Translations under genes and position numbers: made by a program
Shown: piece by piece, positions 13,543 to 48,756 of the stretch
How positions within the stretch are numbered: position 1 is the stretch's first letter
Layout: every line of letters starts with the position of its first letter
Assembly (NCBI GenBank): GCA_024692925.1
Contig: JAILLX010000088.1
Location: 152 to 64,151 of the forward strand
Source of the DNA: a bacterium
Lineage (GTDB): Bacteria; Pseudomonadota; Alphaproteobacteria; Rs-D84; CACZYB01
Reading direction: 5' to 3'
DNA length: 64,000 nucleotides
Notes under the pieces: generated by a model
Database searches by the model: none
Told to the model about the DNA's origin: nothing
Seen by the model: only the letters and a program-made list of their open reading frames with translations

Positions 13543-13563
13543 GGTTAAAAAAAATTATAACTA

Positions 13564-17569: not shown

Positions 17570-17696
17570 TCCAATTCTCCCATAAATATATTAAACATAG
17601 TACCATATTTTTGGACATAATCCAAGCAATATTTGAAAAAATTTACTTTTTTTGTTGCGTTTTAGTAAAATATCGGTTATAAACTATACATCCGAT

Positions 17697-17772: not shown

Positions 17773-17779
17773 TAAATTC

Positions 17780-17810
17780 ACTCCCCACTGTTTTGTGGGG
17801 AGTTTTTTTA
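17780..17810 (+). terminator. rho-independent terminator after tRNA-Phe
   Basis: ctccccac...gtggggag hairpin + T-run. Confidence 0.6.
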
Positions 17811-17828
17811 TTTCGAAAAATGATTATT

Positions 17829-20083: not shown

Positions 20084-20683
20084 CTAAGTTTTATAAATTG
20101 TATCCAATGTATGAGGTGTCCCAATAAAAATTTGCATACCATTTGGCACCAAAATAAAGCTATATTCCAAAAGTTTCTCTCTCAAATCTTGTCTTTTTTG
20201 AAAAGTATCGCAATTTTTTGGTACCTCCACATCATCACAAATCACAACATCAGCCCTACTTCCCGTAGCATTAGACATAAGTCCCACCGCCATCATAGAT
20301 GGATCCCGCAAAGCCACATCACGTGCCACGGTAAAACTTCCCGACGCCCACTCTGATTTTTTCTCAGGTCTAATTTCTTCTAACAAAGGAAAAGTTTCAA
20401 TAATTCGCTTAACATTTCTGACCATCTTTTTTGCCAAAACTGTATCCGCCGCAACCACTAAAATCCTAAGGTTCGGATTAGTATATAAAAGCCACGCACA
20501 AAACACACCAACTATTGTTGACTTTCCACTACTTCGAAACGCCATCAAAAGACCTTTTTTATTTTCAGATTTGTAAATATTCAAAAGCCACTTTGCAATA
20601 CGTATATGGTGCGATGGTGTCGAAAGTCCCTGAAATTTATTCCAATCCAAAAGGAATTTTTCAAAATCAACTTTTTCAACCAT
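20084..20683 (-). CDS. phage terminase large subunit, N-terminal ATPase domain only
   Basis: 199 aa; Walker A AFRSSGKST, ILVVAADTVLAKK, Walker B GSRADVVICDDVE, IFIGTPHT: matches Terminase_6N-type ATPase core; ORF stops after the ATPase domain. Confidence 0.82.
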   Translation of the reverse strand: MVEKVDFEKFLLDWNKFQGLSTPSHHIRIAKWLLNIYKSENKKGLLMAFRSSGKSTIVGVFCAWLLYTNPNLRILVVAADTVLAKKMVRNVKRIIETFPLLEEIRPEKKSEWASGSFTVARDVALRDPSMMAVGLMSNATGSRADVVICDDVEVPKNCDTFQKRQDLREKLLEYSFILVPNGMQIFIGTPHTLDTIYKT

Positions 20684-20684
20684 T

Positions 20685-21110
20685 TTATACTATATTCAAA
20701 TCACCAAATGAATCCAACAAATCCAAACTTTTCTTTCGCATAGTCAAAAGATTTTTATTTTTCTTATAGTTATAATTTATATCATTCGAAGCCAAAGCAA
20801 GATCGGAAAAATATTCCTTATTTTTAATTTCATCCTCTGCTTCTCTTTCCATACTACCAAGAAGGACTGCCGAAGACCCATCTGTAAAATCCACACCATT
20901 TGATGCCATCTTTGCTTTTTTACTTGCAACTTTTGATTTAAGAAGGTTTCTTTTTTCCTCCTCATAAAGTTCTTGTTTTTTCCTTAAATTATCCTCTTGA
21001 ATCTTTGCTTCTTTTTTTGCTAATTTTTTTGATTTTTTAGCATCTTGTATATCCATCACGGTTTTCGCAGCAGAAACAACTCCACCAATCACCGCAGCCG
21101 TAGTTCCCAT
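20685..21110 (-). CDS. hypothetical coiled-coil protein (position of T7 gp13-like internal/assembly protein)
   Basis: 141 aa; follows the gp12-like gene as gp13 does in T7; no direct motif. Confidence 0.35.
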   Translation of the reverse strand: MGTTAAVIGGVVSAAKTVMDIQDAKKSKKLAKKEAKIQEDNLRKKQELYEEEKRNLLKSKVASKKAKMASNGVDFTDGSSAVLLGSMEREAEDEIKNKEYFSDLALASNDINYNYKKNKNLLTMRKKSLDLLDSFGDLNIV

Positions 21111-21122
21111 AATAAATACCTC

Positions 21123-22997
21123 CTATCTTATTACATCAACCAACATTGACATATTTAAAATTTTTAATTTACAAGGAGCCGAACTTTGAATTTTAAACAA
21201 AGGAATTTGGTAATTTTTAACAAAACCTTTTCCACGAATTTTTACATCACCAGAAAAATATTCATCATTAAGAATTATATTTTTAAGTCCCGCCCCTGTA
21301 TCTACTTCCAACTTTTCTGTATCCATAAGTCGTAAATTAAGTTCCAACAGTCTTACCGCCTTTGGAATAAAGCTTGAACCAACAAACAAAGGTAAAGGAC
21401 AAAAGATATGAGTAAAAGGAAGCCCAACAACAATATTTTTACAAGGCTTCGGCAAACTAACTTCATTATTTTCCACCCGTAAATTATAAATTTCACCATC
21501 CGCAACAACTACTACATCTTTATTATTTAAAAAGTCCAAATCAGTAATAGTCGAAATTTCCGTTATCGAAGATATTTTCTTTGCTTTATCAAGAAATAAA
21601 TCTTCATCAAAAACTTCTAAACTATAGGTTCCATCTCGTTCCACAACGACATAAACTTTATCAAATAACACAGCCAACGATTTAAACTTTCCATTGGTTT
21701 TATATTGCACCCACGCATTTGTATTATGACTTTTGTTTATAAGAAGTACTGCCAAAGTTCCATCTTCCTGTACAACATAAAGCCTTCGTTTTTTAACATT
21801 ATAATCTTGTTCCAATGGATTATTAAGAAGATGTGACGAAAGCAAAATTAAATCTTCGGATGAATAATTTTCACTTAAATCGCCATAGAAAAACTCTCTT
21901 ATTTCCTTTTTATTTCTTGCCACAAAAATTGTTGAACCTTCTACAAATTTCGGAGCAATATACCTATCATCCACCGACCCAATTTTTGTTTGTTGACTAA
22001 CACTGATATTCGACGGAGTAATCGGATTCCCAACAACCATCCATTCGGAATCAGATGTAAAAACTTGTAAATGTTTACCGGCAAAAACCGAAACTATTTG
22101 ATTACGCTTGTCTGAAAAAATATCAAATTCAATAGCTTCATCATCAAGTCCACTTCCCAAATCGAAATTAAAGTATTCACCAATTTTTGAAAACCACAAC
22201 CTATTTTTTAAAACATCAGTTCCACCAATCACAAGTCTGTTTTGATAAAAAGCAATACTTGCCGGATATCCACTTTTCTCAGAAAATGCCTGTTCTTGCC
22301 AATTTGCATCTGCATCTTTTGAATTCAAATCCACATTAACAGTTGCATTTGCAACACGTCCCGTAGAAACAGAATTTATCAGTATTTCTCCACCATTTAT
22401 CAAAATCTTCACACCGACATAAATACTGGAAAACAAAGATTGACTTGCCACAATTTTTATTTCCCCAGTTGTCCCATTAGGTGTCAATGTAATCCCTTCG
22501 GTACCATCAATTCTTGTATACGGTTCACACGAATATCCATATGTCGGATGTTTAGGATATATCCAAAAAGCAATAGTCCATGTTCCAACCAACTTATTAT
22601 ACCTAATAATCCGAGGCGGAATAAAAGGATGAACCAAATACAAAGTTTGTCCCTTTTGCACCCATCGCATCTTTGGCAAATCAGAAAGAGTATACGGTGA
22701 ATCTAATGTAGTCACAAACTCACCATTTTTATTAAAAATATCAATATATTCATCTCTGAAAAAAAGTAAAAACATACTGTCTTCGGAATATTCAAAGGCA
22801 ATAATTTTCCCATTTGATTCCAAACTTGAAACAAATTTCAAACCGCTTCGTCTTTCAATACCACCTGTCTGAATCACATCAAAATTAGTAAGGTTCATCG
22901 CCGAACTTCTGTATGCCGAAATATTTCCACGCCCAAACAAATTTCGTGAAAGTTCGCCAAACGAAAAATCATTATAAGTAATACTTTGTTTTGCCAT
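21123..22997 (-). CDS. T7 gp12-like tail tubular protein B
   Basis: 624 aa; KNRLWFSKIGEYFNFDLGSGLDDEAIEFD aligns to T7 gp12 RNRLGFLSG..AKYFNFYP..LSDDDPID; gene order gp11-gp12 preserved. Confidence 0.7.
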   Translation of the reverse strand: MAKQSITYNDFSFGELSRNLFGRGNISAYRSSAMNLTNFDVIQTGGIERRSGLKFVSSLESNGKIIAFEYSEDSMFLLFFRDEYIDIFNKNGEFVTTLDSPYTLSDLPKMRWVQKGQTLYLVHPFIPPRIIRYNKLVGTWTIAFWIYPKHPTYGYSCEPYTRIDGTEGITLTPNGTTGEIKIVASQSLFSSIYVGVKILINGGEILINSVSTGRVANATVNVDLNSKDADANWQEQAFSEKSGYPASIAFYQNRLVIGGTDVLKNRLWFSKIGEYFNFDLGSGLDDEAIEFDIFSDKRNQIVSVFAGKHLQVFTSDSEWMVVGNPITPSNISVSQQTKIGSVDDRYIAPKFVEGSTIFVARNKKEIREFFYGDLSENYSSEDLILLSSHLLNNPLEQDYNVKKRRLYVVQEDGTLAVLLINKSHNTNAWVQYKTNGKFKSLAVLFDKVYVVVERDGTYSLEVFDEDLFLDKAKKISSITEISTITDLDFLNNKDVVVVADGEIYNLRVENNEVSLPKPCKNIVVGLPFTHIFCPLPLFVGSSFIPKAVRLLELNLRLMDTEKLEVDTGAGLKNIILNDEYFSGDVKIRGKGFVKNYQIPLFKIQSSAPCKLKILNMSMLVDVIR

Positions 22998-23005
22998 TAC
23001 TCCTC

Positions 23006-23569
23006 CTATTTTCTTGCATCAATCAAAGAAAAATTTTTCAAAGATTCTGTTGTTTGTTGCATACCATCTATTGATTTTGCTTCTTTTATTTCAGAATTAA
23101 AAAGCCTGTAAAATAATGAATATTTTGATGTATCATTCAAAAGAGAAATCGAAAGTTCGGCAGCCATCAAATAAATAAATGATGAAACAAAAAGTGGTGA
23201 AAAACAATCCTCTCCTACATCAGAAATATACTCAAGTTCCACTTCTTCATCATTACAAAACAAATAGCTCCCTGCAATTTTGTATTTTACTCCTGATGAA
23301 ATTTTCACCGCCCTTAAAAAATCAGCCGGAAGAATATATGCATAACTGTAATCATAACGATTAACATCATCAGCCCTTGTCAACAACGCTGTTTTCAAGG
23401 CAAAACTCCACGCATAAAGGCAAAGAAGTTTTTGTTTTAATCCCAAATAAATACTTTCACAAATTTCCGATTCAACAGTTCCATCTTCAAAAGAAGTTAT
23501 CGAATTCGCCCCAATTTTATTAAGGGCTTTTGAACATAATTCAATATTTGAAAAACTCATATTACTCAC
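23006..23569 (-). CDS. T7 gp11-like tail tubular protein A
   Basis: 187 aa; N-terminus ELCSKALNKIGANSITSFEDG aligns to T7 gp11 [23 protein letters not shown]; size matches (196 aa). Confidence 0.65.
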   Translation of the reverse strand: MSNMSFSNIELCSKALNKIGANSITSFEDGTVESEICESIYLGLKQKLLCLYAWSFALKTALLTRADDVNRYDYSYAYILPADFLRAVKISSGVKYKIAGSYLFCNDEEVELEYISDVGEDCFSPLFVSSFIYLMAAELSISLLNDTSKYSLFYRLFNSEIKEAKSIDGMQQTTESLKNFSLIDARK

Positions 23570-23615
23570 CTTTTCCCTTTTTAAAAAAAGGGGGTCATTG
23601 CCCCCTTAAAATTTA

Positions 23616-23861
23616 CTAAACAACAGAAGATATACTTACTACACCCGCAGTAATCGCACTTACAACAAATATAGTTGTTTCCATTGTTCCATTTATAGAA
23701 GAAGATACAACAATCAAATCACCAACATTATAAATATTTGCAACATCGTTAAAATATCCTGATGTTGAAACAACACTCTTTGCATCTTCTGTTTTATAAT
23801 GCCACAAAGTAAAACCATTCGCATACGCAAGAACAGATAAATTTTTTGAATTCATACTCAT
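23616..23861 (-). CDS. hypothetical small protein between the capsid and tail tubular A genes
   Basis: 81 aa intact ORF; hydrophobic C-terminus. Confidence 0.35.
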   Translation of the reverse strand: MSMNSKNLSVLAYANGFTLWHYKTEDAKSVVSTSGYFNDVANIYNVGDLIVVSSSINGTMETTIFVVSAITAGVVSISSVV

Positions 23862-23896
23862 TTTATTTTTTCCTTTCCTTTTTTTATTTATAAAGC

Positions 23897-24727
23897 CTAA
23901 GCAATTGTTGCATCATCATCGCAAAGGATTTTTACAATACCTAAATTATCAATAAGTTTTGCACCCTGACTCATACAATTTGATACGAAATGAGATGCTC
24001 TTTCGCCATGCCATGAAATATCAGTTTTTACATCACAACCTGATGCATGACCTATTGCATTTTTGTGATAAATAAAGCAACTACGATTACCATCAGCAAT
24101 TGGCAAAGAATTATGTAAAATCCAATTAATTCCCATCCATTTTCTTGATTCTGTACCTTTCAAAAGAGGATATGAATCACCAACATAATCAGCACTGGAA
24201 AATTCTTCCATACTTAAAAGTTCATTCCATTGATGCACACCAACAACACCAAATCTTTGGCCATCATCCGGCACATCATTTGCATTTAAAAATTCTAATG
24301 CTTCAAAAATTTTTGATTTAGTAAGACCTGTTGAACCGGCACTAACCGCATTTGTTGCTTTATCAAGTTCTGAAATAATAAGTTCATCACTTTTTCTTCC
24401 CAAAGCATACGCACCAGCCGATGCAACAACTCTTCTTTCATCAATGTTTGTTTTAAGTTCATCAAGCTCGTCAACCCAATCCCCAGCATAGTAATCAGTA
24501 AGTACACATTCAACTGGTGTATGATCCAAATTCATCACTGGAACAAGTCCGTGTCTTGATTTAGTCGAAGCAATCCCCTTACCAATTTTTTGAAAAGTTG
24601 TTGAACTACCTCTTACATCATTTTTTGTTCTAACTGTTGAACGAAGTTTTGTTCCCATTTGTTGAAAAGCAAGGTGAACTTCCGCTTCGAATTGTTTTAT
24701 AAATACATTATCAATAGATACTGACAT
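23897..24727 (-). CDS. T7 gp10-like major capsid protein (HK97 fold)
   Basis: 276 aa; FEAEVHLAFQQ..RSTVRTKNDVRGSSTTFQKIGKG..ASAGAYALGRKSDELIISEL aligns to T7 gp10A FGGEVLTAF..SVTTSRHMVRSISSGKSAQFPVLGR..SQLGESLAMAADGAVLAEI. Confidence 0.78.
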   Translation of the reverse strand: MSVSIDNVFIKQFEAEVHLAFQQMGTKLRSTVRTKNDVRGSSTTFQKIGKGIASTKSRHGLVPVMNLDHTPVECVLTDYYAGDWVDELDELKTNIDERRVVASAGAYALGRKSDELIISELDKATNAVSAGSTGLTKSKIFEALEFLNANDVPDDGQRFGVVGVHQWNELLSMEEFSSADYVGDSYPLLKGTESRKWMGINWILHNSLPIADGNRSCFIYHKNAIGHASGCDVKTDISWHGERASHFVSNCMSQGAKLIDNLGIVKILCDDDATIA

Positions 24728-38038: not shown

Positions 38039-38821
38039 TTATCTTGAAAAATCAGTACTTTTGGATAATTGATTATCCATTTTCAAAAGTTCAAGCAACT
38101 TATTTTTACCCATTTCGAACATCTCGTCACGGCTTTTTGAAATATCATCCGACAATGCAATTTCAGTATTATCAGTTGGGGTTGAAACAACCTCCTCCTG
38201 TGGCATTGCGAAACTTGGTACTTCATCAACCTTTGTTTCAGGTTCTGAAAACGCTGGCACATCGGACATATTTTCAATAACCTCCTCCATAACCGGAGTA
38301 AATTCAGGAACTGCAAATTCAATATTATCCCCCAAATCCAATTCAGCTTCTGCCTTTTTAATTTCATCTGATGAAAAATCAACTGATGGTACAGAAAATT
38401 CCGGAACATCAGCAACACTATTTTCTTGTGGCATAGAAAAACTTGGCACTTCCTCCGCCATCTCCTCCTGTAGCATTGCGAAACTTGGTACTTCCTCAAC
38501 CTTTGTTTCAGGTTCCGAAAATGCTGGCACATCATCAACCTTAACTTCGTTTTGCACAGGATTTTCAGCAGTTTCTTTTACTTCTGGTTTTACTTCAACC
38601 TGACCATTTTCCAAACGGCTTCGTATTTCATTGACAAGTTGTTGATGCCTATCCTTAACAGAAATTTCTTCATCCTTTTTACGGCTTTCACCATAGCCAT
38701 CAGCCCATCTTGTTTTAAGTGGTTCCACATTCATAACGGATCTCATTTGTTCATCAGTAAGCCCGTATGATTTTTTCATATTTTCATATTCTTCAAGTGG
38801 TACTTGTCTTACTTCAGCCAT
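38039..38821 (-). CDS. acidic protein with internal ~80-aa tandem repeats (start at MAEVRQ)
   Basis: DVPAFSEPETKVEEVPSFAM.QEE... repeated twice; strongly acidic; no known domain. Confidence 0.45.
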   Translation of the reverse strand: MAEVRQVPLEEYENMKKSYGLTDEQMRSVMNVEPLKTRWADGYGESRKKDEEISVKDRHQQLVNEIRSRLENGQVEVKPEVKETAENPVQNEVKVDDVPAFSEPETKVEEVPSFAMLQEEMAEEVPSFSMPQENSVADVPEFSVPSVDFSSDEIKKAEAELDLGDNIEFAVPEFTPVMEEVIENMSDVPAFSEPETKVDEVPSFAMPQEEVVSTPTDNTEIALSDDISKSRDEMFEMGKNKLLELLKMDNQLSKSTDFSR

Positions 38822-38875: not shown

Positions 38876-40141
38876 TTATTTAGAAAGTTTCAATTTTATT
38901 GTATCAAGGTCATAAATACCTTCACATTTTCCAAGACCCGCAACCGTAATTTTTGATGAAAAAATTTTCTGTGCAGTATTTTTTATATCATCCAGCGAAA
39001 GTGATTCAATAAGTTGTATTGACTCAGAAAACGGAATATGCTTTCCAAAGTGTTGCATTTGACGACCCAAAACCCTTGCCCTTGCAGTTGAATTTTCCAA
39101 ACTCATTAACACACTGGACTTATAACTTATCTTTGCACGTTCAAATTCACGTTCAGTAATACCATCACAAATCTTTAAAATTTCACCGGCTGTTGCATCA
39201 ATAACCTTGTTAATCTTTTCCGGTACGGTGGAAGTATAAATATAAAAATGTCCGGTATCGGAATAATTACTTACACTTGAATATATTGTGTAAACAAGGT
39301 TGTGTTTTTCCCTTACCTCTTGGAAAAGTCGGGATGACATTCCCCCGCCAAGGGTATTGCAAAGAATGTTTTCACAAAAAACTTCTTTCCTGTCAAAAAG
39401 GTTTGTTGCTTCGAACCCAAGCATAAGGTGTACTTGCTCCAAATCTTTGTTTTTGATAAAGTACCCACCCTCGTATTTTGCAGGTGGTGTTGGTGGACAT
39501 CCAGCCACAGTCAAATTTGTGAAATATTTTTTTGCAAGTTCAATAACTTTTTCCTCATCAAAATTTCCTGATACCACAAGGAAAAGTTTATCGGCACAAT
39601 AATTTGTTTTGATATAGGATTTAAGCATATCCGGAGTAATAGAACGTATCGTTTCATCAGTACCCAAAATTGCCCGCCCAAGTGGTTGGTTTGGATATGC
39701 CACCTCGCCATAGTAATCATAAATCACATCATCCGGAGTATCCAGCGAGCTATAATATTCCTGTAAAATAACATTCCTTTCCTTCGAAGTTTCATTTTCA
39801 TCGAAAACAGAGTTTTGAATAATATCCGCCAAAATATCAATGCTTACTTCTAAATATTCCTTTAATGTTTTGGTATAAAAAAAGGTATGATCCTTTGAGG
39901 TATAGGCGTTAATATCGCCCCCAATATCTTCGATAATTTCAGCAATATCCTTATATGTTTTAGTAGTAGTCCCCTTAAAAGCCATATGTTCCAAAAAGTG
40001 TGAAATTCCGTTAATTTCCTTTGTTTCATTACGTGAACCAACACTTGCCCACACACCACAAAAAACCGTTTCAATCGAAGGGTTAAAATCCGACACAACC
40101 GTAAATCCATTTTCCAACTTTGTAATTCTTACATTCTTCAT
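38876..40141 (-). CDS. M16 family zinc metallopeptidase (pitrilysin/processing-peptidase-like)
   Basis: 421 aa; inverted zinc motif HFLEHMAFKGT (HxxEH). Confidence 0.85.
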   Translation of the reverse strand: MKNVRITKLENGFTVVSDFNPSIETVFCGVWASVGSRNETKEINGISHFLEHMAFKGTTTKTYKDIAEIIEDIGGDINAYTSKDHTFFYTKTLKEYLEVSIDILADIIQNSVFDENETSKERNVILQEYYSSLDTPDDVIYDYYGEVAYPNQPLGRAILGTDETIRSITPDMLKSYIKTNYCADKLFLVVSGNFDEEKVIELAKKYFTNLTVAGCPPTPPAKYEGGYFIKNKDLEQVHLMLGFEATNLFDRKEVFCENILCNTLGGGMSSRLFQEVREKHNLVYTIYSSVSNYSDTGHFYIYTSTVPEKINKVIDATAGEILKICDGITEREFERAKISYKSSVLMSLENSTARARVLGRQMQHFGKHIPFSESIQLIESLSLDDIKNTAQKIFSSKITVAGLGKCEGIYDLDTIKLKLSK

Positions 40142-40268
40142 AACACACCTCTTTTTAATGATAGTAAAATAGTATCACCTGCCCTGATTAAAATCAAATA
40201 AAAAAGTATTTACAATAAGTATTATATACTTTATACTTTAAGAAAATAAGTCACAAAAAGGAGAAAAA

Positions 40269-41864
40269 ATGTTAAACAAAAGAAGCATAGGAAAAATTTT
40301 ACTTTCTGTTTTTGTAATATCATCACTACTTATTACTGGTGATAGTATTGTAAATGCAGCAAAGAAAAGATCATCAAAACGTGCAAGTAGCACATCAAAC
40401 AAAAAGAAAACTTCATCAAAAAAATCCGGTTCAAAACGTTCGGCAAGTTCTAAATCATCGAAACGTGCCGCAAGTACAAATTCACGTCGTGCCGCAAGTA
40501 CAAATTCCCGCCGTGCCGCACGAACAAACTCTCGCCGTGCTGCCGCTGCTGCACGAAGAATTTCTGGTGCAACAACATCAACTGCTTCCACATCAAAAAG
40601 GTCATCGGGTAATCAATGTCCTGTTGGAAGAGTAGTAAGATATGCTTCTGATGAACAAACATATTATTATGCAAGAAAGAAAACTTGTACTGCACCTGAA
40701 AATGCACACGAAGAATCATGGGATTCAAGTTCTAATTTAAAAAAGATGGCATGGATCGAAGCATCCGAAGCTGTATACTTCACCTGTGATGAAAATTTCA
40801 CAAAAAAGGGAACTGCATGTATCGATGCATACGGTATTTGCCCTCTTGATACTGCACTTGAAAAATCAGGAAAGGATTACATAAATCCAAATACGGATGA
40901 GGCTTGCTCTGCTCCGGAAAAATCAATTTTATCAAAACTTACTGATGAGGAAGCCGAAAACGCAGGATACGATTCCGCATATAAATTCTCTTGCCCTGAA
41001 AATTATTATTCAAGCGAGTTAACAGCTGGATACATTGCACAATGTAATGAATGCCCTGATGGATATACTGCACCTGCTGGTTCCACATCAAAGGATGCCT
41101 GTGTAAATCCATTGGATAAGGTATCATGCGATGCCGGAAACGGATATGTCGATGGCACATGTACCCCATGTGCTGCTGGTACTTTCTCTCTTGGTGGAAA
41201 GACACAATGTAATACTTGTCTTGCAACAGGTGTTGCGACATGTGATGCCACAAATGGAAAGGCTTTGACCTGTAAGACTGGCTATTATATGAGTGATGGT
41301 AATTGCGTAGCAGAAAAATCTTGTGGTACAGGGGCTGCGACATGTGATAAATCTACTGGAAAAGCAACAAAATGTAATGGTGGTTATAAGTTGTTAAGCA
41401 ACGGTACATGTGAAATTTGTCCTGCTGGTACTTATGCAAGGGCTGGTTCACAAGTATGTTCTCCATGTAATGATTACTACTGGTCTAACCCTGGTTCTGC
41501 ATCTTGCGGTCGAATTCAAATTAAAATTACTTACTCTCATTGGAACAATGACAATGAAGCAGGAAGAACTTGTGCCGCTTCAAAACAACAATGGTTTAAC
41601 GCTGGAACAACTGTTCAATGTAATAATGCAACATTTGGTGACCCTGCGGTAGGTCGTGGTAAGGGTTGTGGTGCCGAATGTGCTCACCTTTCAAGTGAAG
41701 GACAAACCATTGAACTTGGTTCATGCCGAAAACTTCCATGTGATATTTACGGAAGAAGTGGCGACAGAACTATAAAACTTAATGCTGATGGTACCGCTGA
41801 TGGTAAGGGTTCTGGTTGGTCCAATACTTACAGCAGGGTTTCATCAAATATGGTAAGATGGTAA
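40269..41864 (+). CDS. secreted cysteine-rich repeat protein with basic Ser/Arg/Ala-rich N-terminal module
   Basis: 531 aa; signal peptide; KRASSTSNKKKTSSKK...STNSRRAASTNSRRAARTNSRRAAAAARR; >40 Cys in repeated C..C(P).G.Y(.A.AG....C..C) units resembling eukaryotic furin-like/GCC2-GCC3/VSP-type repeats. Confidence 0.55.
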   Translation: MLNKRSIGKILLSVFVISSLLITGDSIVNAAKKRSSKRASSTSNKKKTSSKKSGSKRSASSKSSKRAASTNSRRAASTNSRRAARTNSRRAAAAARRISGATTSTASTSKRSSGNQCPVGRVVRYASDEQTYYYARKKTCTAPENAHEESWDSSSNLKKMAWIEASEAVYFTCDENFTKKGTACIDAYGICPLDTALEKSGKDYINPNTDEACSAPEKSILSKLTDEEAENAGYDSAYKFSCPENYYSSELTAGYIAQCNECPDGYTAPAGSTSKDACVNPLDKVSCDAGNGYVDGTCTPCAAGTFSLGGKTQCNTCLATGVATCDATNGKALTCKTGYYMSDGNCVAEKSCGTGAATCDKSTGKATKCNGGYKLLSNGTCEICPAGTYARAGSQVCSPCNDYYWSNPGSASCGRIQIKITYSHWNNDNEAGRTCAASKQQWFNAGTTVQCNNATFGDPAVGRGKGCGAECAHLSSEGQTIELGSCRKLPCDIYGRSGDRTIKLNADGTADGKGSGWSNTYSRVSSNMVRW

Positions 41865-41885: not shown

Positions 41886-41916
41886 GACCCTGAAATTCAT
41901 TCAGGGCCTTTTTTTG
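41886..41916 (+). terminator. terminator-like hairpin (degenerate member of the hairpin repeat family) after the Cys-rich gene
   Basis: gaccctgaa attcat ttcagggcc + T-run. Confidence 0.5.
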
Positions 41917-42433: not shown

Positions 42434-43681
42434 CTACTGATACCTTAATGCCTCAATCGGATCAAGTTTTGTTGCCTTAATCGCAGGGAAAATTCCTGAC
42501 GCAATTCCAACAACAATTGCAACTGAAAATGAAATTATCACGGTAAGCATTGATATTGGCACATTCTTTTCCAACAAAACGCCAACAACTTGCGATATAC
42601 CAATACCCAAAACCATTCCAACCATACTTCCAATAAACGAAATCAAAATCGCCTCCAAAAGGAATTGATAAAGTATATAGGAATTTTTCGCACCAATCGC
42701 CTTTCGTATACCAATCTCACGCGTACGTTCGGTCACGGAAACAAGCATCATATTCATAATACCAATACTTCCAACAATAAGGGATATCGAAGCAATCGAC
42801 GCCAACAAAATCGAAAGATATGTTCCAACCGACTTTACAGTTTCGACCATCTCGGTCATATCATCCACCCTAAAATCATTTTCCGCACCAGGTTTAAGAC
42901 GTCGAGATTCGCGTAGGGCATTTTCAATATACTTTTTTGCCTTTGAAATATTTTTATCACTATCCACCTGTGCCATAATATAGCTTACACGATTCGGAAT
43001 ATAACTTCCCCTAATACGTCTACGATAAGTTGTCACCGGCATAATCACAGTTTCGTCCCTGTCGACGCCACCCATACCTTGACCCTTTGCCTTTAACACA
43101 CCCTTTACAATAAACGGAATATTACTTACACGCACAGTTTTCCCAATCGCACTTTCACCACCTGGGAAAAGATTCGCTTCAATAGTTTTTCCAATCAACA
43201 CATAAGCCTGTGCCGATTTCACATCACGTTCGGAAAGTCCCTCGCCTCGTTCAATCTCCCACTTTCCAGTAGAAAGATAATCCGGAGTCGACGCAACAAT
43301 TGATGCGGTATAATTTTCATTTCCATAAATAATTTGTGCCGTACCATTAACAATAGGCGACACTGCCTTTATATATTTAAGTTTTCTTATCACATCCGCA
43401 TCACCAGTTTTAACCACAGTTTGCCCACCACTTTTCACACCCGACGTTGCAACAAATTCCGGTCTGATAAGCAAAAGATTACTTCCCATTCCGGCGAAAC
43501 TGTCGTTAATCATATTCTGTACAGTTTGCCCCGCCGCAACCATAATCACAACTGCACACACACCAATAATGATACCAAGTGTTGTCAAAAACGAACGAAG
43601 TTTATTTGACTTTATCGAAATCCAAGACTCACGAAAAACAGCATTGGACATATGAATTTTTTGATCAAGTTTTTCTTCCAT
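42434..43681 (-). CDS. ABC transporter permease, MacB/LolE (FtsX) family
   Basis: 415 aa; N-terminal TM, large periplasmic domain, three C-terminal TMs; MacB-like architecture. Confidence 0.82.
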   Translation of the reverse strand: MEEKLDQKIHMSNAVFRESWISIKSNKLRSFLTTLGIIIGVCAVVIMVAAGQTVQNMINDSFAGMGSNLLLIRPEFVATSGVKSGGQTVVKTGDADVIRKLKYIKAVSPIVNGTAQIIYGNENYTASIVASTPDYLSTGKWEIERGEGLSERDVKSAQAYVLIGKTIEANLFPGGESAIGKTVRVSNIPFIVKGVLKAKGQGMGGVDRDETVIMPVTTYRRRIRGSYIPNRVSYIMAQVDSDKNISKAKKYIENALRESRRLKPGAENDFRVDDMTEMVETVKSVGTYLSILLASIASISLIVGSIGIMNMMLVSVTERTREIGIRKAIGAKNSYILYQFLLEAILISFIGSMVGMVLGIGISQVVGVLLEKNVPISMLTVIISFSVAIVVGIASGIFPAIKATKLDPIEALRYQ

Positions 43682-44388
43682 TATCGTTTTCCCTTAAATT
43701 CACTTACCGGACCATCATAATGCACGACACCATCAATTATGTAAATAAGGCGTTTTGCAAAATCCGCAATATCCGGTTCATGCGTGACAAGAACAATAGT
43801 TTTTCCATCTTCGTTTAATTTTTGGAAAAGGTTCATAATTTCAACCGAAGTTTTTGTATCCAAATTTCCGGTTGGTTCATCCGCCAAAATAAGTTTTGGA
43901 TTATTGATAAGTGCACGTGCAATTGCAACCCTTTGTTGCATACCACCCGAAATCTGACTTGGAAATCTATCAACAAAATCCTTTAGCCCAACATGTTCAA
44001 GCATCTCCCTTGCCCGTTTATGTTGAGTATCCAAATCATACCCCGCATAAATAAGAGGAATTGAAACATTATCAAGCAAAGATCTTTTCATCAAAAGGTT
44101 AAACCCCTGAAACACAAAACCGATTTTTTCACTTCGAACATTTGCAAGCTGGTCATCATTCATTCCCGATACAACTTCGCCACCAATTTTATAAACACCT
44201 GATGTCGGAGTATCAAGACAACCAAGCGTATTCATAAGAGTGGACTTACCACTTCCACTTGGTCCCATAATTGCAACAAATTCACCTTCTTCTATTGAAA
44301 AATTTACATCCTTTAAAACAGGATACGGATCCCCAACAGCCATAGGATAACTTTTATATAAATGTTCTACTTCTATAACTTTTGCCAT
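43681..44388 (-). CDS. ABC transporter ATP-binding protein (MacB/LolD-type)
   Basis: 235 aa; Walker A GPSGSGKST, signature LSGGMQQRVAIARAL, Walker B LILADEPTGNLD. Confidence 0.9.
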   Translation of the reverse strand: MAKVIEVEHLYKSYPMAVGDPYPVLKDVNFSIEEGEFVAIMGPSGSGKSTLMNTLGCLDTPTSGVYKIGGEVVSGMNDDQLANVRSEKIGFVFQGFNLLMKRSLLDNVSIPLIYAGYDLDTQHKRAREMLEHVGLKDFVDRFPSQISGGMQQRVAIARALINNPKLILADEPTGNLDTKTSVEIMNLFQKLNEDGKTIVLVTHEPDIADFAKRLIYIIDGVVHYDGPVSEFKGKR

Positions 44389-44398
44389 AGGTCTTTTC

Positions 44399-45613
44399 CT
44401 ACATCATTGGTGGACCACGTCTATTTCTTCCGCCGAACGATGATGACTTTTTTGATTTTTTAGCTTTAAGTTCACCCTCATACAAAAAATCAGAAATAAT
44501 CATATCCCCATCTTTTAATTCCGAAGATATAATTTCAGTAATCGCACCATTTGTAATACCCTTTACAACCTTAACTGCTCTTATATCTTTTTCACCTTTT
44601 TTAAAGGTATAAACAAATGTTTCATTAGGAAGCAATGTTTTATTTTCCGGATAGATTATATAGCTTTGCAATGCCTCATCTGGTTTAAATTGAAGAACAT
44701 AATTTTCAATAGAAAGGACATTATTTTTTCTTAATGTATCCACATCAACAAACGCAGTCATCCCCGGAAGAAGTTTTCCTTCCTTATTATCGATTTTTAT
44801 AATAACATTATAGATAACAACATTTTGTTCAGTTGTTGGATTAAGTCGCACCTGATCCACAACACCATGGAATGTTTCAACCGGAAAAGCATCAACCGTA
44901 AAATCTACATTCTGACCTTTTTTTATATTACCAATATCCGCCTCTGAAATACTCGCTTCAATCTGCATTTTAGTTAAATCTTCCGCAATAGTAAAAAGTG
45001 TTGGTGCAGAAAATGACGAAGCAATAGTTTGCCCTTCCTCCACATCCTTTGAAATAACGACACCCGATACCGGAGATTTAATTTCAGCATATTCAATATT
45101 GCGTTTGCTTCGTTCATTATTTGCCTTTGCCGCAATATAATCAGCCTCCGCACTTGCCAAATCAGTCACAGCTTGATCCAATTCAAATTTTGCAATATAT
45201 CCCTCATTAAACAAAGACTCGGTTCTTTCTTTATCAAGCCTTGCTAAATCAAACTTTGCCTTTGCCTGAGCCATCTTTGCCTCAGTCGAATTTATATCTT
45301 CAATCAAAAGGGATTTATCAATTTGTGCAAGAAGTTGTCCTTCCTTCACCTCTGCATTATAATCAACATAAATCTTGTCAACTATACCTGAAACTTGTGC
45401 ACCAACAGACACAACATTCACCGGATTTATTGTACCAGTTGCACTTACTGATGAATGCACATCTTGATTTGATAACTTTGCAAATTCAAAAAGTTCTGGT
45501 TTAAGGTTAAGTGGTTTATTTCTTCCAAAAAAAAGTTTATATGCACCAAATATGGCACCCAAAATAATAATTGAAACTATAACTTTCTTTTTATTTACAT
45601 TTTCTAAAACCAT
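44399..45613 (-). CDS. HlyD/MacA-family periplasmic adaptor (membrane fusion protein)
   Basis: 404 aa; N-terminal TM, coiled-coil hairpin, beta-barrel/lipoyl-like C-terminal region. Confidence 0.78.
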   Translation of the reverse strand: MVLENVNKKKVIVSIIILGAIFGAYKLFFGRNKPLNLKPELFEFAKLSNQDVHSSVSATGTINPVNVVSVGAQVSGIVDKIYVDYNAEVKEGQLLAQIDKSLLIEDINSTEAKMAQAKAKFDLARLDKERTESLFNEGYIAKFELDQAVTDLASAEADYIAAKANNERSKRNIEYAEIKSPVSGVVISKDVEEGQTIASSFSAPTLFTIAEDLTKMQIEASISEADIGNIKKGQNVDFTVDAFPVETFHGVVDQVRLNPTTEQNVVIYNVIIKIDNKEGKLLPGMTAFVDVDTLRKNNVLSIENYVLQFKPDEALQSYIIYPENKTLLPNETFVYTFKKGEKDIRAVKVVKGITNGAITEIISSELKDGDMIISDFLYEGELKAKKSKKSSSFGGRNRRGPPMM

Positions 45614-45628
45614 CTAGCCTCCAATATT

Positions 45629-47011
45629 TTATTTTAGTTCACCAAGATTTTTTAAATTAAGTTCACCCGCTGATTTAAGAAGGGCAACCTTTGCAGTATA
45701 AAGTCCATACTGTGCAGCAATAAGTTCCTGTCTTGCAGAAAGAAGTTTTGATTGTGCTTCCATAAGACTTATAATATCGCCTTTTCCTGCCTTAAATGAA
45801 CCAAGGGCAACCCTTTCGTTTTCAACTGCACTTTCAAAAAGTTTCTTTGCAATAGTAAGAGCTTTTACACTTGTCTTATAACCATTATACGCGGTCACAA
45901 CACTAAGTTCGACATCTTGTTCTAATTGTTTCAAAGCCTCTTTGTCTGCTGCATATTGATATTTTGCATTACGGAGCGAATAAGTATTTTCAAATCCAGT
46001 AAATATTGGCATAGAAATTTTTACACCCAAAGCCCAATAATCTTGATCTTTTTCCAAACTATTTACTTCTGGATCAACATCAGTCCATGTTCTTGAACCA
46101 AATGCAGAAATCGTTGGGAAATAAGTTGCACTTGCCGATCTTACACCTGCATAACTTGCCTTAACTACCGCAGCCTTTGCCTGTAAATCAGGTCTTTTTG
46201 CCAAAGCAAGTTTCACCAAATCATCAACTGATTTATTAATAAGTTCATCTGTTGTATCAGCAAATGATTGAACAAGTCTTATCTCCTGTGATGGAGGAAG
46301 TCCCAAATAACTTGCAAGTTTTGCATTTGCGGTAATTACAACTTGCTCTTGCTTTGTCACCTGAAGTTGTGCCTGTGCATAAGCAGTTTCCGCCTGCAAA
46401 GTATCAGCCTTTGATGACATTCCTAATTCAAACTTTTTACTTGCAAGTTCAAACGATTTCAAACTTGCCTCTTCATTTGCCTTAACCGCAGCCAATTCCT
46501 CCACCGCAGAAAGAGCATCATAATATGCAACTATTGTATCGTATGCAACCTGTTGCAAAGTATTATTGTATTGAAAATTCATCGAATTCATTGATTGAAA
46601 AGTTTTTTCAACCGCAGATTCTCTTTTTCCAAAATCATACAAAAGCCAACTAAGTGATAAACCAGCCTCTGCCCCCTTTGAAACAGTTTCAACACCATCT
46701 GGATTTACCATATAATTTGTTGAATCAGATTTTGTATAACCCGCACTTGCATTTATTTGTGGAAGATATGAACCCAATGTTCCCTTATACGCAGTTTCAC
46801 CAACCTTTGTTGAAAGCCAAGCCTGTCTTGTTGTCGGATTATTGCACATAGCAAGTTCAATTACATCAGCCAAGTTAAGTGCATCCTTTGTCACATCCTT
46901 TGTAATATTACAAGAACTACTAATATTAACACTTTTATTTTCTACATTTTCCGAAGCCATAACATTTGTTGATAAAAGCAAAGCCATAGCCAATATTGAT
47001 ACTTTTTTCAT
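45629..47011 (-). CDS. TolC-like outer-membrane efflux protein (start at MKKVSIL)
   Basis: Signal peptide; two internally repeated helical-hairpin halves typical of the OEP family. Confidence 0.72.
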   Translation of the reverse strand: MKKVSILAMALLLSTNVMASENVENKSVNISSSCNITKDVTKDALNLADVIELAMCNNPTTRQAWLSTKVGETAYKGTLGSYLPQINASAGYTKSDSTNYMVNPDGVETVSKGAEAGLSLSWLLYDFGKRESAVEKTFQSMNSMNFQYNNTLQQVAYDTIVAYYDALSAVEELAAVKANEEASLKSFELASKKFELGMSSKADTLQAETAYAQAQLQVTKQEQVVITANAKLASYLGLPPSQEIRLVQSFADTTDELINKSVDDLVKLALAKRPDLQAKAAVVKASYAGVRSASATYFPTISAFGSRTWTDVDPEVNSLEKDQDYWALGVKISMPIFTGFENTYSLRNAKYQYAADKEALKQLEQDVELSVVTAYNGYKTSVKALTIAKKLFESAVENERVALGSFKAGKGDIISLMEAQSKLLSARQELIAAQYGLYTAKVALLKSAGELNLKNLGELK

Positions 47012-47175
47012 AAAAATTACTCCTTTATACATATCCTTTAATTATAGTTTAAAAAGAAAATAGTGTCAAATTATTTAAACTCCTATATCTAAGTTTTTAT
47101 TATTTTTGTCATTAACTTAACAAAAAAATAAACCCCATACAAAAAGCACGGGGTTTAAGAAGTACCAAAAAAAAG

Positions 47176-48756
47176 TTATTGTGCAGAATTTAACGCATCA
47201 AGACAATCCTTTGCCATATCTGCATCTTTTTCCACCTTTGAAATTGCCACCACAGAAAGTGCAGTTGACGCACCCGAAGTACCGGTTGTCACACCTGCCA
47301 ATATTGTTGTAGCAAGGTTCAAATTCTTTTCTTTCTTTTTTCCCTTTTCGGAATCATCAGAACGAACCTTATCATTATTTGCCATAATTGATGTCACAGT
47401 ACCAGCACCAGCCGTAGCAGTTCCAACTGATGAAATAATACCTGATGCCAACATAACATTTGAAACTTTTTCAATATTTTTTTCATCAAACGGAGAACAT
47501 TTTTCTGCAATATTTGATGCAAGTTTATATGTTGCATCTTCGATTGACATTTCTTCGGCTTCGAACTCTGCTTTTATTTGTTTAAGTTCTGCAATTTTCG
47601 CATTACATGTAGCCATTCTTTTTACCAAAGTTTTCGCCCTACCTGTTGAAACAAATGATGAAACAGTTGATACAGTCGAAGTAGCAGTTGCACCTGCCAT
47701 AAGTCCAGTTCTTATATTACCCAAAGTTTTTGAAGTTTGTTCATCCTTTGAATTTTTTAAATTATTTCGTGCATTAACTTCATCAACCTTTGCCTGTAAT
47801 GTTGTTTCGTTATCTTTTTCCGCATCATAGGATGCAAGTTTTCCAGACAATTCTTCAGTATTAGAAATTGATGAATATGGTTCAAGTTTTTGCAATGCAT
47901 CATATTGTTGTCTAAGAATATTTGCATTAACCGACGGACCTTCTTCAAAAGGATTAAGATCTACCTTACCAACTTCTTTAAAATATTGACCATAAAGTTC
48001 ATCAATTTTCTTTGCTTCTTCAATCATTTTTTCATTATCTTCAGCATTTTTAGCTTCATCAAAAGCAAACCATGCTTCACCAACCACACCTTTTACTTCA
48101 TCAATTTTTTCTTGTGTAAGCTCATCTTTTACCAAAGCAATTTCTTGACTATTTTCGATTCGTTTATCAACTGAACCCTTTACCAAACTTACTGCCAATG
48201 CACCACCCGCAGCCATTGTTCCCAAACCGGATGATACTGTTGTTGCGGTTGCCCATCCTCTTATCACAGCCAAATCATCTGCAATTCCTGAACATGCACT
48301 TGATGCTTCGGTAAGTTTAGCAGCAAATTTTGTTTTAAGTGCATTTAATGCTTTTGAAGATTTAAGTTCTGATTTCAACGCATTATTTTCCATTGTCAAT
48401 TGTTGTTCAGTAGAAAGTGCTGTACCATCTGCATTTGTGACAGAAGAAGAAACTGAACCATCCGAATATGTTTGTGTTGTTGTTATTGTACCATCAGCAT
48501 TTACAACAGTATTTGTTGAAACCAAAGTGGCTGGTTCCGGAGTTGCCACAACATTTTCTGGTACCACAGGTACCACAGTATCAGTTGTTGTATAAATTGC
48601 AGTAGTAGAACTAGCCGCAAGTTTTGAAGCCGATGCCGCCCTACGTCTTTTTGCAGTATACCTGTTTGTTTTTGCATCCGCAGTTAATGGAAATACTATA
48701 ATTTCATTCAAAATAATAGCACTTAAAGTAAGAATACTTATTTTTTTATTTTTCAT
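47176..48756 (-). CDS. secreted coiled-coil protein with basic N-terminal module and Gly/Ala/Thr-rich segments
   Basis: 526 aa; signal peptide; RRRAASASKLAASS; GLGTMAAGGALAVS, GTATAGAGTVTS, GVTTGTSGASTALS; paralogue of 15908..17569. Confidence 0.5.
   Translation of the reverse strand: MKNKKISILTLSAIILNEIIVFPLTADAKTNRYTAKRRRAASASKLAASSTTAIYTTTDTVVPVVPENVVATPEPATLVSTNTVVNADGTITTTQTYSDGSVSSSVTNADGTALSTEQQLTMENNALKSELKSSKALNALKTKFAAKLTEASSACSGIADDLAVIRGWATATTVSSGLGTMAAGGALAVSLVKGSVDKRIENSQEIALVKDELTQEKIDEVKGVVGEAWFAFDEAKNAEDNEKMIEEAKKIDELYGQYFKEVGKVDLNPFEEGPSVNANILRQQYDALQKLEPYSSISNTEELSGKLASYDAEKDNETTLQAKVDEVNARNNLKNSKDEQTSKTLGNIRTGLMAGATATSTVSTVSSFVSTGRAKTLVKRMATCNAKIAELKQIKAEFEAEEMSIEDATYKLASNIAEKCSPFDEKNIEKVSNVMLASGIISSVGTATAGAGTVTSIMANNDKVRSDDSEKGKKKEKNLNLATTILAGVTTGTSGASTALSVVAISKVEKDADMAKDCLDALNSAQ

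What the first reader, a model, noticed from the sequence alone, without database searches (positions are those of the whole stretch)
40269..41864. Eukaryote-like cysteine-rich repeat protein (CxxC..G.Y furin/GCC2-GCC3/VSP-type units) in a bacterial genome
After the basic N-terminal module, the protein carries more than 40 cysteines arranged in recurring units such as CNECPDGYTAPAGSTSKDAC, CTPCAAGTFSLGGKTQC, CEICPAGTYARAGSQVCSPC and CKTGYYMSDGNC. This spacing is characteristic of eukaryotic furin-like, TNFR or Giardia VSP-type repeats and is rare in bacteria outside host-associated lineages. It is a candidate host-interaction or adhesin protein, possibly horizontally acquired.
Basis: partly seen in the sequence, partly recalled or inferred. 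Interest (0 to 1): 0.55.

Follow-up and report, generated by a model that had tools for sequence, protein, structure and literature searches.

The report
Secreted cysteine-rich modular protein, gut alphaproteobacterium
This is a real, native gene of an uncultured gut alphaproteobacterium for an exported, disulfide-rich modular protein whose middle part is built from the cysteine-rich units known from animal and protist receptors (ephrin-receptor/TNF-receptor type). It is one member of a domain-shuffled bacterial family, not a recent import from a eukaryote.

Summary
The ORF (40269-41864, +, 531 aa) and all four quoted motifs are real, but it has 32 cysteines, not more than 40. That is 6.0% Cys against 0.93% in the other 53 genes.

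Layout:
- Sec-type signal peptide
- 85-residue acid-free polybasic Ser/Ala-rich stretch (26 K/R)
- conserved N-module (117-278, no Pfam family)
- Cys-rich repeats (279-413)
- 118-residue C-terminal beta-domain (no Pfam family, no PDB fold match)

The query is below Pfam's thresholds (Ephrin_rec_like, formerly GCC2_GCC3, 15 vs 23.1 bits). Homologues aligned over the same region pass clearly (up to 96 bits). An AlphaFold model (pLDDT 90.5) matches the mastigoneme protein Mst1, the EphA4 ectodomain, ELAPOR1, TNF receptors and the CaSR cysteine-rich domain. Furin-like and Giardia VSP models gave no hit.

Recent horizontal transfer is not supported. Codon use and GC3 are typical of the window, and paralogues occur in several ruminant-gut Alphaproteobacteria MAGs. 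The N- and C-modules matched no named eukaryotic protein.

The family keeps the signal peptide, polybasic stretch and N-module, and swaps the C-terminal parts. Most likely it is an exported binding protein with a rigid disulfide stalk, but that function is inferred. GenBank lists it as 'hypothetical protein' (MCR5506898.1).

The parts
40209..40237 (+). promoter-like site (TTTACA-17-TATACT)
   Evidence: Consensus scan, 10 of 12 matches. The number of such sites in the region is not above the shuffled expectation, so this is suggestive only.
40258..40263 (+). ribosome-binding site AAGGAG, 5 nt before the ATG
   Evidence: Read directly from the sequence.
40269..41864 (+). complete CDS, 531 aa, 32 Cys; identical to GenBank MCR5506898.1 'hypothetical protein K6F04_03565'
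40269..40358 (+). Sec-type signal peptide (residues 1-30): n-region MLNKRSIGK, hydrophobic core ILLSVFVISSLLI, c-region ending VNA|A
   Evidence: Sequence inspection. A-x-A-like sites lie at the same place in homologues. No signal-peptide predictor was available.
40359..40613 (+). polybasic, acid-free Ser/Ala/Thr-rich low-complexity region (residues 31-115; 26 K/R, 0 D/E, pI ~12)
   Evidence: This stretch was not included in the structure model (the model starts at residue 105). A comparable stretch precedes the N-module in most full-length family members.
40464..40540 (+). 24-nt tandem repeat x3.2 encoding (A)ASTNSRR units inside the polybasic region
40614..41102 (+). family-defining N-module (residues 116-278). 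It has 10 invariant Cys: two ~70-aa four-Cys units (117-190, 191-262) plus the first CxxCPxGY...C unit (259-278).
   Evidence: Invariant columns in A1/A7. Internal duplication by hhalign: E 3.6e-5, probability 71%. pLDDT about 88-96. No Pfam family; only weak Sushi/CCP hints.
41103..41507 (+). variable Cys-rich stalk (residues 279-413, 16 Cys). It holds Ephrin_rec_like/TNFR-type units (298-314, 381-397, 400-413) and 'TGVATCD..G....C..GY......C' units (314-346, 352-381).
41508..41861 (+). C-terminal beta-rich domain (residues 414-531, 6 Cys) with the motif CNNATFGDPAVGRGKGC. Together with the last CxxC unit it forms a conserved module that also occurs in small stand-alone secreted proteins.
   Evidence: Model of residues 395-531: pLDDT 91.0, pTM 0.85. 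No Pfam hit. No PDB fold match; best Foldseek E is 0.4.
41888..41915 (+). intrinsic-terminator-like hairpin plus T-run, also readable on the - strand

Best explanation
The gene is native to an uncultured, low-GC gut alphaproteobacterium. It encodes a Sec-exported protein that folds in an oxidising compartment with up to 16 disulfides.

Shown: it is one member of a lineage-specific, domain-shuffled family. The constant front end is a signal peptide, an acid-free polybasic Ser/Ala-rich stretch and a ~160-residue N-module with 10 conserved Cys. It is joined to interchangeable C-terminal parts. In this member those parts are a stalk of ephrin-receptor-like/TNFR-type cysteine-rich units and a 118-residue beta-domain of unrecognised fold.

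Inferred: the repeats act as a rigid, protease-resistant spacer, as they do in Eph receptors, ELAPOR1, TNFRs and the algal mastigoneme. The C-terminal domain is the ligand-binding head. The polybasic N-terminus holds the protein on an anionic surface (its own LPS or envelope, or a partner's glycans). On this reading the protein is a surface or extracellular binding protein (adhesin-like).

The repeat module is of a type otherwise mainly eukaryotic. When and in which direction it crossed domains is unresolved, but the transfer was not recent.
For: - ORF, RBS and terminator are present.
- Cys is 6.0% against 0.93% elsewhere in the window. The Cys count is even in each module (10, 16 and 6).
- Repeat type: sub-threshold Pfam hits on the query; homologues above the Ephrin_rec_like cut-off; a family profile hits Mst1 at 1.2e-28, ELAPOR1 at 2e-9, then CaSR, thyroglobulin and TNFRSF21.
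- Structure: the AF2 model has pLDDT 90.5. Foldseek top hits are mastigoneme 8wa2, EphA4, ELAPOR1, TNFRs and CaSR, plus viral TNFR and ephrin-receptor-like proteins.
- Family and modularity: 21 homologues by word search and 157 at E<=1e-3 among 1.84 billion representatives. Of the sequences fetched, 51 carry the N-module and 54 match the C-module profile (about 40 over most of its length, the rest only the FGDP unit). Only four distinct proteins combine N- and C-modules. At least five other C-terminal types were seen.
- Taxonomy: named hits and all five genome loci are 'MAG: Alphaproteobacteria bacterium' (one titled 'uncultured proteobacterium'). At least two of those MAGs are from ruminant gut, and one MAG holds two paralogues.
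- Native composition: GC3 and codon usage lie inside the window's range.
- The basic stretch is conserved in position in most full-length N-module proteins.
Against: - The query itself fails every Pfam gathering threshold.
- No experiment, localisation signal or secretion-system link shows the protein leaves the periplasm. There is no lipobox, beta-barrel, sortase-type or known C-terminal sorting signal.
- From general knowledge of E. coli Sec export, a strongly positive early mature region hinders translocation. The polybasic stretch directly after the cleavage site is therefore odd and unexplained.
- No ligand is known, and the C-domain has no recognisable lectin or adhesin fold.
- There is no conserved synteny to hint at a pathway.
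- The N-module fold could not be searched on its own.
Confidence: 0.55

Rival explanations
1. Recent horizontal acquisition of a eukaryotic (host or protist) gene, kept as a mimic of a host receptor.
For: - The repeat type is regarded as eukaryotic in origin, with bacterial cases read as transfers (PMC6993872).
- Strong repeat-only hits include Carpediemonas membranifera (P0030, E 1.1e-28), Entamoeba invadens (P0083) and an oyster PCSK5-like protein (P0075).
Against: - GC3 of 0.214 and codon usage are typical of the window.
- The gene has a bacterial RBS, signal peptide and terminator.
- The N-module and C-module matched no named eukaryotic protein.
- The family has many diverged paralogues in several MAGs.
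- The E-values to eukaryotic giants sum up to 20 short repeat matches and carry little phylogenetic information.
Confidence: 0.07
2. An envelope or periplasmic structural protein with no role in contacting other cells. The polybasic stretch would bind the bacterium's own membranes or peptidoglycan, and the Cys-rich part would stiffen or space the envelope.
For: - Only a Sec signal is present and no outer-membrane translocation signal was found.
- Two other exported proteins in the window also start with a short basic stretch, suggesting a general envelope-related feature of this lineage.
Against: - Extensive swapping of C-terminal modules and multiple paralogues per genome is more typical of exposed, diversifying proteins than of structural envelope parts.
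- The C-module also occurs as small stand-alone secreted proteins without the basic stretch.
Confidence: 0.2
3. A polymorphic toxin- or bacteriocin-like effector: a constant N-terminal delivery part with variable C-terminal 'warheads'.
For: - The architecture is a conserved front end with variable C-termini.
- The C-module occurs as small secreted proteins.
Against: - No toxin, peptidase, nuclease or pore-forming domain appears in Pfam or NCBIfam.
- There is no candidate immunity gene. The next gene is a GIY-YIG protein on the other strand.
- There is no link to T6SS, CDI or Rhs genes, and the neighbourhood is not conserved.
Confidence: 0.08
4. Inverted topology. By the positive-inside rule the polybasic flank stays in the cytoplasm, the hydrophobic segment is an anchor, and the CxxC-rich part binds metal rather than forming disulfides.
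For: There are 26 K/R directly after the hydrophobic segment against 3 before it. CxxC pairs can bind zinc (general knowledge).
Against: - The repeats are homologous and structurally similar to extracellular disulfide-bonded modules.
- A-x-A cleavage motifs are conserved in the family.
- The Cys counts are even in each module.
Confidence: 0.03

Closest known systems
Pfam PF07699 Ephrin_rec_like (formerly GCC2_GCC3) repeats, as in Eph-receptor cysteine-rich regions, ELAPOR1 and Chlamydomonas mastigoneme Mst1
   Same: The CxxCPxG(T/Y)(Y/F)...G....C spacing is shared. Homologues score above the family cut-off. The family profile hits Mst1 and ELAPOR1 in the PDB. The fold matches 8wa2, 4m4p and 9vqm.
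   Different: The query's own score is below the cut-off (15 vs 23.1 bits). The host is a bacterium. The repeats are flanked by an N-module and a C-domain that matched no eukaryotic protein. There is no kinase, transmembrane or other receptor part.
TNF-receptor cysteine-rich domains (PF00020, PF23091), including viral decoy receptors
   Same: The fold is an elongated ladder of disulfide-bonded modules. Foldseek hits DcR3, CD40, 4-1BB and TNFR1 and iridovirus and poxvirus TNFR homologues. TNFR_ELAPOR1_6th scores 23.6 bits.
   Different: There is no PF00020 hit on the query. E-values are weak (1e-3 to 1e-1) and TM-scores low, as expected for flexible repeats. Nothing suggests TNF-like ligand binding.
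Cysteine-rich surface proteins of anaerobic protists (Giardia VSP/HCMP type; Carpediemonas 'TNFR-Cys domain' protein KAG9397448.1; Entamoeba EIN_448670)
   Same: These also have many CxxC and GY-containing units. The Carpediemonas protein matches query residues 299-413 at 37% identity in 20 stretches. The Entamoeba protein matches at E 8.7e-9.
   Different: The Pfam VSP model gave no hit. The protist proteins are giant repeat arrays with membrane anchors, whereas this protein has only about six units between unrelated modules.
Eukaryotic-like proteins (ELPs) of bacterial symbionts
   Same: It is a eukaryote-type extracellular module in a bacterium with a reduced, host-associated lifestyle. Rumen Alphaproteobacteria MAGs are described as metabolically reduced (PMC8992543).
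   Different: Classical ELPs (ankyrin, LRR, U-box, TBC) act inside host cells after injection. This one is disulfide-rich and Sec-exported, so it would act outside cells.
Sushi/CCP modules (for the N-module only)
   Same: There is a weak motif-level resemblance around 'EAVYFxCxxGY....C': Pfam Sushi 14.1 bits, E 0.065, and the CFHR1 CCP structure at E 0.01.
   Different: The scores are below threshold, and the cysteine spacing and tryptophan position do not fit the canonical CCP pattern. This is a lead only.

Membership tests
Pfam PF07699 Ephrin_rec_like (ex-GCC2_GCC3) | Whole-protein HMM score at or above the gathering threshold (23.1 bits) | tested here: not met
   The query scores 15.0 bits, E 0.021, in three stretches.
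Pfam PF07699 Ephrin_rec_like (ex-GCC2_GCC3) | Homology by transitivity: relatives aligned over the same repeats are bona fide members | tested here: met
   P0004 50.1, P0005 26.5, P0008 51.1, P0013 48.8, P0040 79, P0171 89.2 and P0175 95.7 bits. Query residues 286-531 align to the P0040 locus at E 5.6e-26. The A4 profile, which contains the query, hits Mst1 'ephrin type A/B receptor-like domain' at 1.2e-28.
Pfam PF07699 Ephrin_rec_like (ex-GCC2_GCC3) | Cysteine pattern CxxC-P/A-x-G-x-aromatic ... G ... C in tandem | tested here: met
   Units lie at residues 259-278, 298-314, 381-397 and 400-413.
Pfam PF07699 Ephrin_rec_like (ex-GCC2_GCC3) | TNFR-like disulfide-ladder fold | tested here: met
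   In the AF2 model this region has pLDDT about 81-97. Foldseek hits 8wa2 (prob 0.99), EphA4 ectodomain, ELAPOR1, TNFRs and CaSR CRD.
TNFR_c6 (PF00020) | HMM match above 29.4 bits | tested here: not met
   No hit on the query at E<=10. Some relatives reach 20-35 bits.
Furin-like (PF00757) / Giardia VSP (PF03302) | Any HMM match | tested here: not met
   Neither family is listed for the query at E<=10, nor for relatives at E<=0.01 or E<=0.001.
Sushi/CCP (PF00084), N-module only | HMM score of at least 20.7 bits and the four-Cys, one-Trp CCP pattern | tested here: inconclusive
   14.1 bits, E 0.065. The N-module profile hits the CFHR1 CCP at E 0.01 with no stretch significant on its own. The spacing differs from canonical CCP.
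Polymorphic toxin systems | Recognisable C-terminal toxin domain and an adjacent immunity gene | tested here: not met
   No toxin domain. The downstream gene is a GIY-YIG protein on the opposite strand. Neighbourhoods are not conserved.
Known Gram-negative surface-display families (autotransporters, lipoproteins, T9SS/PEP-CTERM-type sorting) | Beta-barrel translocator, lipobox or C-terminal sorting domain | tested here: not met
   No such Pfam or NCBIfam hit. There is no Cys at the signal-peptide cleavage region.
Horizontally acquired island gene | Atypical GC3 or codon usage relative to neighbours; mobile-element flanks | tested here: not met
   GC3 is 0.214 against 0.13-0.34, and the gene ranks 7th of 54 by codon-usage log-likelihood. 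No relatives were found in viral contigs.

The most novel reading that the evidence does not exclude
The conserved front end (signal peptide, acid-free polybasic repeat and duplicated four-Cys N-module) could be a lineage-specific display or sorting cassette of reduced-genome gut Alphaproteobacteria. It would present interchangeable heads on a disulfide-braced, eukaryote-type stalk, and these bacteria would use it to attach to eukaryotic cells (gut protists or host epithelium or mucus) or to partner bacteria. The C-terminal 'CNNxTFGDPxxGxxKxC' beta-domain would then be a new binding fold.
Probability: 0.2. Interest if true: 0.65.

Novelty: new variant of a known kind. Interest (0 to 1): 0.4.

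Why it matters
It shows that ephrin-receptor/TNFR-type cysteine-rich units, usually treated as a eukaryotic invention, are built into a sizeable native protein family of uncultured gut Alphaproteobacteria. It also defines two confidently modelled but unannotated modules (the N-module and the C-terminal beta-domain) and a conserved polybasic N-terminal stretch. These bacteria have no cultured representatives and reduced metabolism. Their exported proteins are among the few handles on how they interact with hosts, protists or other microbes. If the polybasic early mature region is truly exported, it would also be an exception to the charge bias known for Sec substrates. The finding does not by itself open a long-standing question, and the gene is already deposited as a hypothetical protein.

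Tried and rejected
- NCBIfam gave only low-complexity matches to the basic region, all far below their cut-offs.
- A word-indexed homologue search with the C-module alone found only a 99% identical fragment. It had to be repeated with an alignment.
- A sequence search of the query against the PDB found nothing.
- Synteny: none of the window's neighbours recur within 6 kb of the homologues in L003-L007. I therefore dropped two ideas: that the adjacent MacB/MacA/TolC-type operon exports the protein, and that the adjacent M16 peptidase processes the Arg/Ser/Ala-rich stretch.
- Phage carriage: no relative was found in IMG/VR viral contigs. Two broader alignments were too diverse to scan with.
- Literature: the 2026 preprint on 'cysteine-rich repeats' as HGT markers describes a different pattern (Cx6-9Cx5-7Cx8-11Cx7-8CC), not this one. 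The rumen-ciliate symbiont preprint does not mention Alphaproteobacteria. No paper on this family was found.
- The overlapping minus-strand ORF 40238..40591 was dismissed as a by-product of the repetitive coding sequence.
Full report
**1. The observation**

The ORF 40269..41864 (+) encodes 531 residues.

The protein has 32 cysteines, not more than 40. That is 6.0% Cys against 0.93% in the other 53 ORFs of the window. The binomial P is 2.5e-16.

The gene looks like a self-contained transcription unit:
- a promoter-like site at 40209-40237;
- AAGGAG at 40258-40263, five bases before the ATG;
- a hairpin plus T-run at 41888-41906.

An exact look-up shows the window is a 64.6-kb contig of a GenBank MAG labelled 'bacterium'. 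The protein is MCR5506898.1, 'hypothetical protein K6F04_03565'. The window's ParE falls in a 90%-identity cluster with 'Alphaproteobacteria bacterium' MAG proteins.

**2. Anatomy**

- Residues 1-30 are a Sec-type signal peptide ending VNA|A. This is from sequence inspection; homologues have A-x-A-like sites at the same place.
- Residues 31-115 hold 12 K, 14 R, 25 S, 16 A and no acidic residue, with pI about 12. A 24-nt tandem repeat (x3.2) encodes ASTNSRR units.
- Residues 116-278 are the part conserved across the family, with ten invariant Cys. Its two halves (117-190 and 191-262) align profile-to-profile with all cysteines in register (hhalign E 3.6e-5, probability 71%). It is probably an internal duplication of a ~70-residue four-Cys unit, followed by the first CxxCPxGY unit.
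- Residues 279-413 hold 16 Cys in two kinds of unit. One is CxxC-P/A-x-G-T-Y/F...C. The other is 'TGVATCD..G....C..GY......C', which Pfam does not model; P0019, made of seven such units, has no Pfam hit.
- Residues 414-531 form a beta-rich domain with six Cys and the motif CNNATFGDPAVGRGKGC.

The Cys counts per module (10, 16 and 6) are all even. That fits disulfide bonding.

**3. The repeat type**

On the query, Pfam gives only sub-threshold hits: NCD3G 25 bits, TNFR_ELAPOR1_6th 23.6 bits and Ephrin_rec_like 15 bits against a cut-off of 23.1. All three describe TNFR-like cysteine-rich modules. Furin-like and VSP models do not hit.

Relatives that align over the same region pass the Ephrin_rec_like cut-off clearly:

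| Protein | Ephrin_rec_like score (bits) |
|---|---|
| P0004 | 50 |
| P0008 | 51 |
| P0013 | 49 |
| P0040 | 79 |
| P0171 | 89 |
| P0175 | 96 |

A profile that includes the query's last unit hits several PDB sequences:
- the Chlamydomonas mastigoneme protein Mst1, deposited as 'ephrin type A/B receptor-like domain-containing', at 1.2e-28;
- ELAPOR1 at 2e-9;
- then thyroglobulin, CaSR and TNFRSF21.

An AlphaFold2 model of residues 105-531 has mean pLDDT 90.5. Its best PDB matches by Foldseek are the mastigoneme (E 1e-4, prob 0.99), the EphA4 ectodomain, ELAPOR1, DcR3, CD40, 4-1BB, TNFR1 and the CaSR cysteine-rich domain. In the viral library it matches iridovirus and poxvirus TNFR homologues and a giant-virus ephrin-receptor-like protein.

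It holds through homologues and structure rather than through the query's own HMM score.

**4. The other two modules**

*N-module.* It has no Pfam family. The only hints are a Sushi match of 14 bits and a marginal profile hit to the CCP modules of CFHR1 (E 0.01). These are leads, not membership.

*C-terminal module.* Together with the preceding CPxYxWSxxGxxxC unit, it recurs in many small (170-250 aa) proteins. These consist of a signal peptide, two to five Ephrin_rec_like units and this domain. One of them sits on a 231-kb bacterial contig between a T4SS coupling protein and glycosyltransferases.
- Modelled alone, the domain has pLDDT 91.0 and pTM 0.85.
- It has no Pfam hit and no PDB fold match; the best Foldseek E is 0.4 with TM-scores below 0.25.
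- Its FGDPxxGxxKxC stretch also occurs as a ~50-residue tandem unit in unrelated bacterial proteins (P0021, P0097, P0106, P0120), which likewise lack a Pfam family.

**5. The family**

The word-indexed search found 21 homologues. Those with names are 'MAG: Alphaproteobacteria bacterium'. The exhaustive search of 1.84 billion representatives found 157 proteins at E<=1e-3.

With HMMs built here, the counts among the sequences fetched were as follows:
- 51 carry the N-module;
- 54 match the C-module profile, about 40 over most of its length and the rest only the FGDP unit;
- only four distinct proteins combine the two: the query, P0005/P0199, P0024 and P0050.

Most full-length N-module proteins have a polybasic stretch in front (net charge +8 to +18 in a 40-residue window). 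The small C-module proteins do not.

Behind the N-module the family carries at least five other kinds of C-terminus:
- glycine-rich domains ending in ..MY;
- EGF-like 'C.C..GY.GDG' arrays;
- coiled-coil linkers;
- a 'YTCIDGWTNHW' domain;
- others.

A scan of one genome per species found five loci. All are MAGs titled Alphaproteobacteria (one 'uncultured proteobacterium') with 31-35% GC, and at least two (water deer rectum, RUG) are from ruminant gut. One MAG has two paralogues. Neighbouring genes are not conserved.

**6. Origin**

GC3 of the gene is 0.214, against 0.13-0.34 for neighbours. Its synonymous-codon log-likelihood under the rest of the window ranks 7th of 54, next to ordinary cellular genes. 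Its slightly higher overall GC (0.41) probably reflects its Ala/Gly/Cys/Ser-rich composition. No relative was found in viral contigs.

Repeat-only matches include the following:
- a Carpediemonas membranifera 'TNFR-Cys domain' protein (E 1.1e-28, summed over 20 stretches);
- an Entamoeba invadens protein;
- an oyster PCSK5-like protein.

The literature treats Ephrin_rec_like as having emerged in early eukaryotes, with bacterial cases as transfers (PMC6993872). My reading is that the repeat module may well have crossed domains at some point, in an unknown direction. This gene, however, is a long-resident member of a bacterial family and not a recent acquisition.

**7. How it most likely works**

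Shown:
- export signal;
- disulfide-type modules;
- modular family with swapped C-termini;
- native composition.

Inferred:
- the repeats form a rigid spacer, as in their eukaryotic counterparts;
- the C-terminal domain is the binding head;
- the polybasic stretch tethers the protein to an anionic surface.

Rumen Alphaproteobacteria MAGs (orders RF32 and Rs-D84) are described as small and metabolically reduced, possibly dependent on other microbes (PMC8992543). That would fit a need for attachment proteins, but this is context and not evidence. I did not place this MAG in an order.

One oddity rests on general knowledge and was not tested here. In E. coli, a strongly positive early mature region hinders Sec export, yet this family has eight K/R within the first 18 mature residues.

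The rivals and why I rank them lower:

| Rival | Confidence |
|---|---|
| Purely periplasmic or envelope role | 0.2 |
| Toxin-like effector | 0.08 |
| Recent eukaryote-to-bacterium transfer | 0.07 |
| Inverted topology with metal binding | 0.03 |

The evidence for and against each is given in the rival-explanations section.

**8. Verdict**

The domain assignment is right in kind. The transfer idea is not supported as a recent event, and the function is still inferred.

It is a new variant of a known kind: a bacterial exported protein family that combines eukaryote-type Ephrin_rec_like/TNFR units with two uncharacterised modules and a conserved polybasic start. Interest is moderate (0.4).

Noticed in passing
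window 15908-17569 (-) and 47176-48756 (-): Two further exported proteins (553 and 526 aa) begin with a signal peptide followed at once by a short basic K/R/S-rich stretch. They are distant paralogues of each other (BLASTP E 2e-4, colinear over ~400 residues). They have Gly/Ala/Ser/Thr-rich hydrophobic segments and no Pfam family. Basic early mature regions may be a habit of this lineage.
   Followed up: partly
window ~11112-24727 (-): T7/podovirus-like structural genes by PHROGs: major head, two tail tubular proteins, internal virion protein, portal/adaptor and terminase. The terminase large subunit is in two pieces about 8 kb apart: 20084-20683 matches profile positions 270-459, and 11112-11981 matches 468-712. 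Between them lie an FtsZ-like gene, tRNA-Phe and other cellular-looking genes. This could be a prophage remnant, a rearrangement or a mis-assembly.
   Followed up: partly
window 42434-47032 (-): A complete MacB permease / ABC ATPase / HlyD-MacA adaptor / TolC-like outer-membrane factor operon lies convergent with the target gene. It is not found next to homologues elsewhere, so it is probably unrelated.
   Followed up: partly
window 38876-40141 (-): An M16 (insulinase/MPP-type) peptidase with an HFLEH motif and no signal peptide lies divergently next to the target. The target's acid-free Arg/Ser/Ala-rich stretch resembles MPP substrates in composition only. The adjacency is not conserved in other loci.
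   Followed up: partly
proteins P0021, P0097, P0106, P0120 (metagenomic; not in the window): These are bacterial proteins made of tandem ~50-residue units 'C..E.G.C.F.G...V.YGA......C.N..FGDP..G..K.C'. They share the FGDPxxGxxKxC stretch with the target's C-domain. No Pfam family covers the unit; only sub-threshold Cys_Knot_tox hits appear.
   Followed up: partly
proteins P0001, P0002, P0003, P0007, P0023, P0039, P0044, P0069, P0073: Many family members end in a glycine-rich domain (GGxGGxG runs), several of them ending in the residues ..MY. P0001 and P0002 showed no Pfam match to it at E<=0.01. It is one of the interchangeable heads.
   Followed up: no
L003 5866-7605 (P0008, MAG RGIG8969): This homologue lacks the signal peptide and the whole polybasic region. 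Its first ~45 residues read like a frameshifted version of the N-terminus of P0006/P0009. Possible causes are repeat collapse in assembly, a pseudogene, or on/off variation through the repetitive coding DNA.
   Followed up: no
window 38039-38821 (-): A 260-aa strongly acidic protein has repeated '(D/E)VP(S/A)F(S/A)(E/M)P(E/Q)' units and no Pfam family.
   Followed up: no
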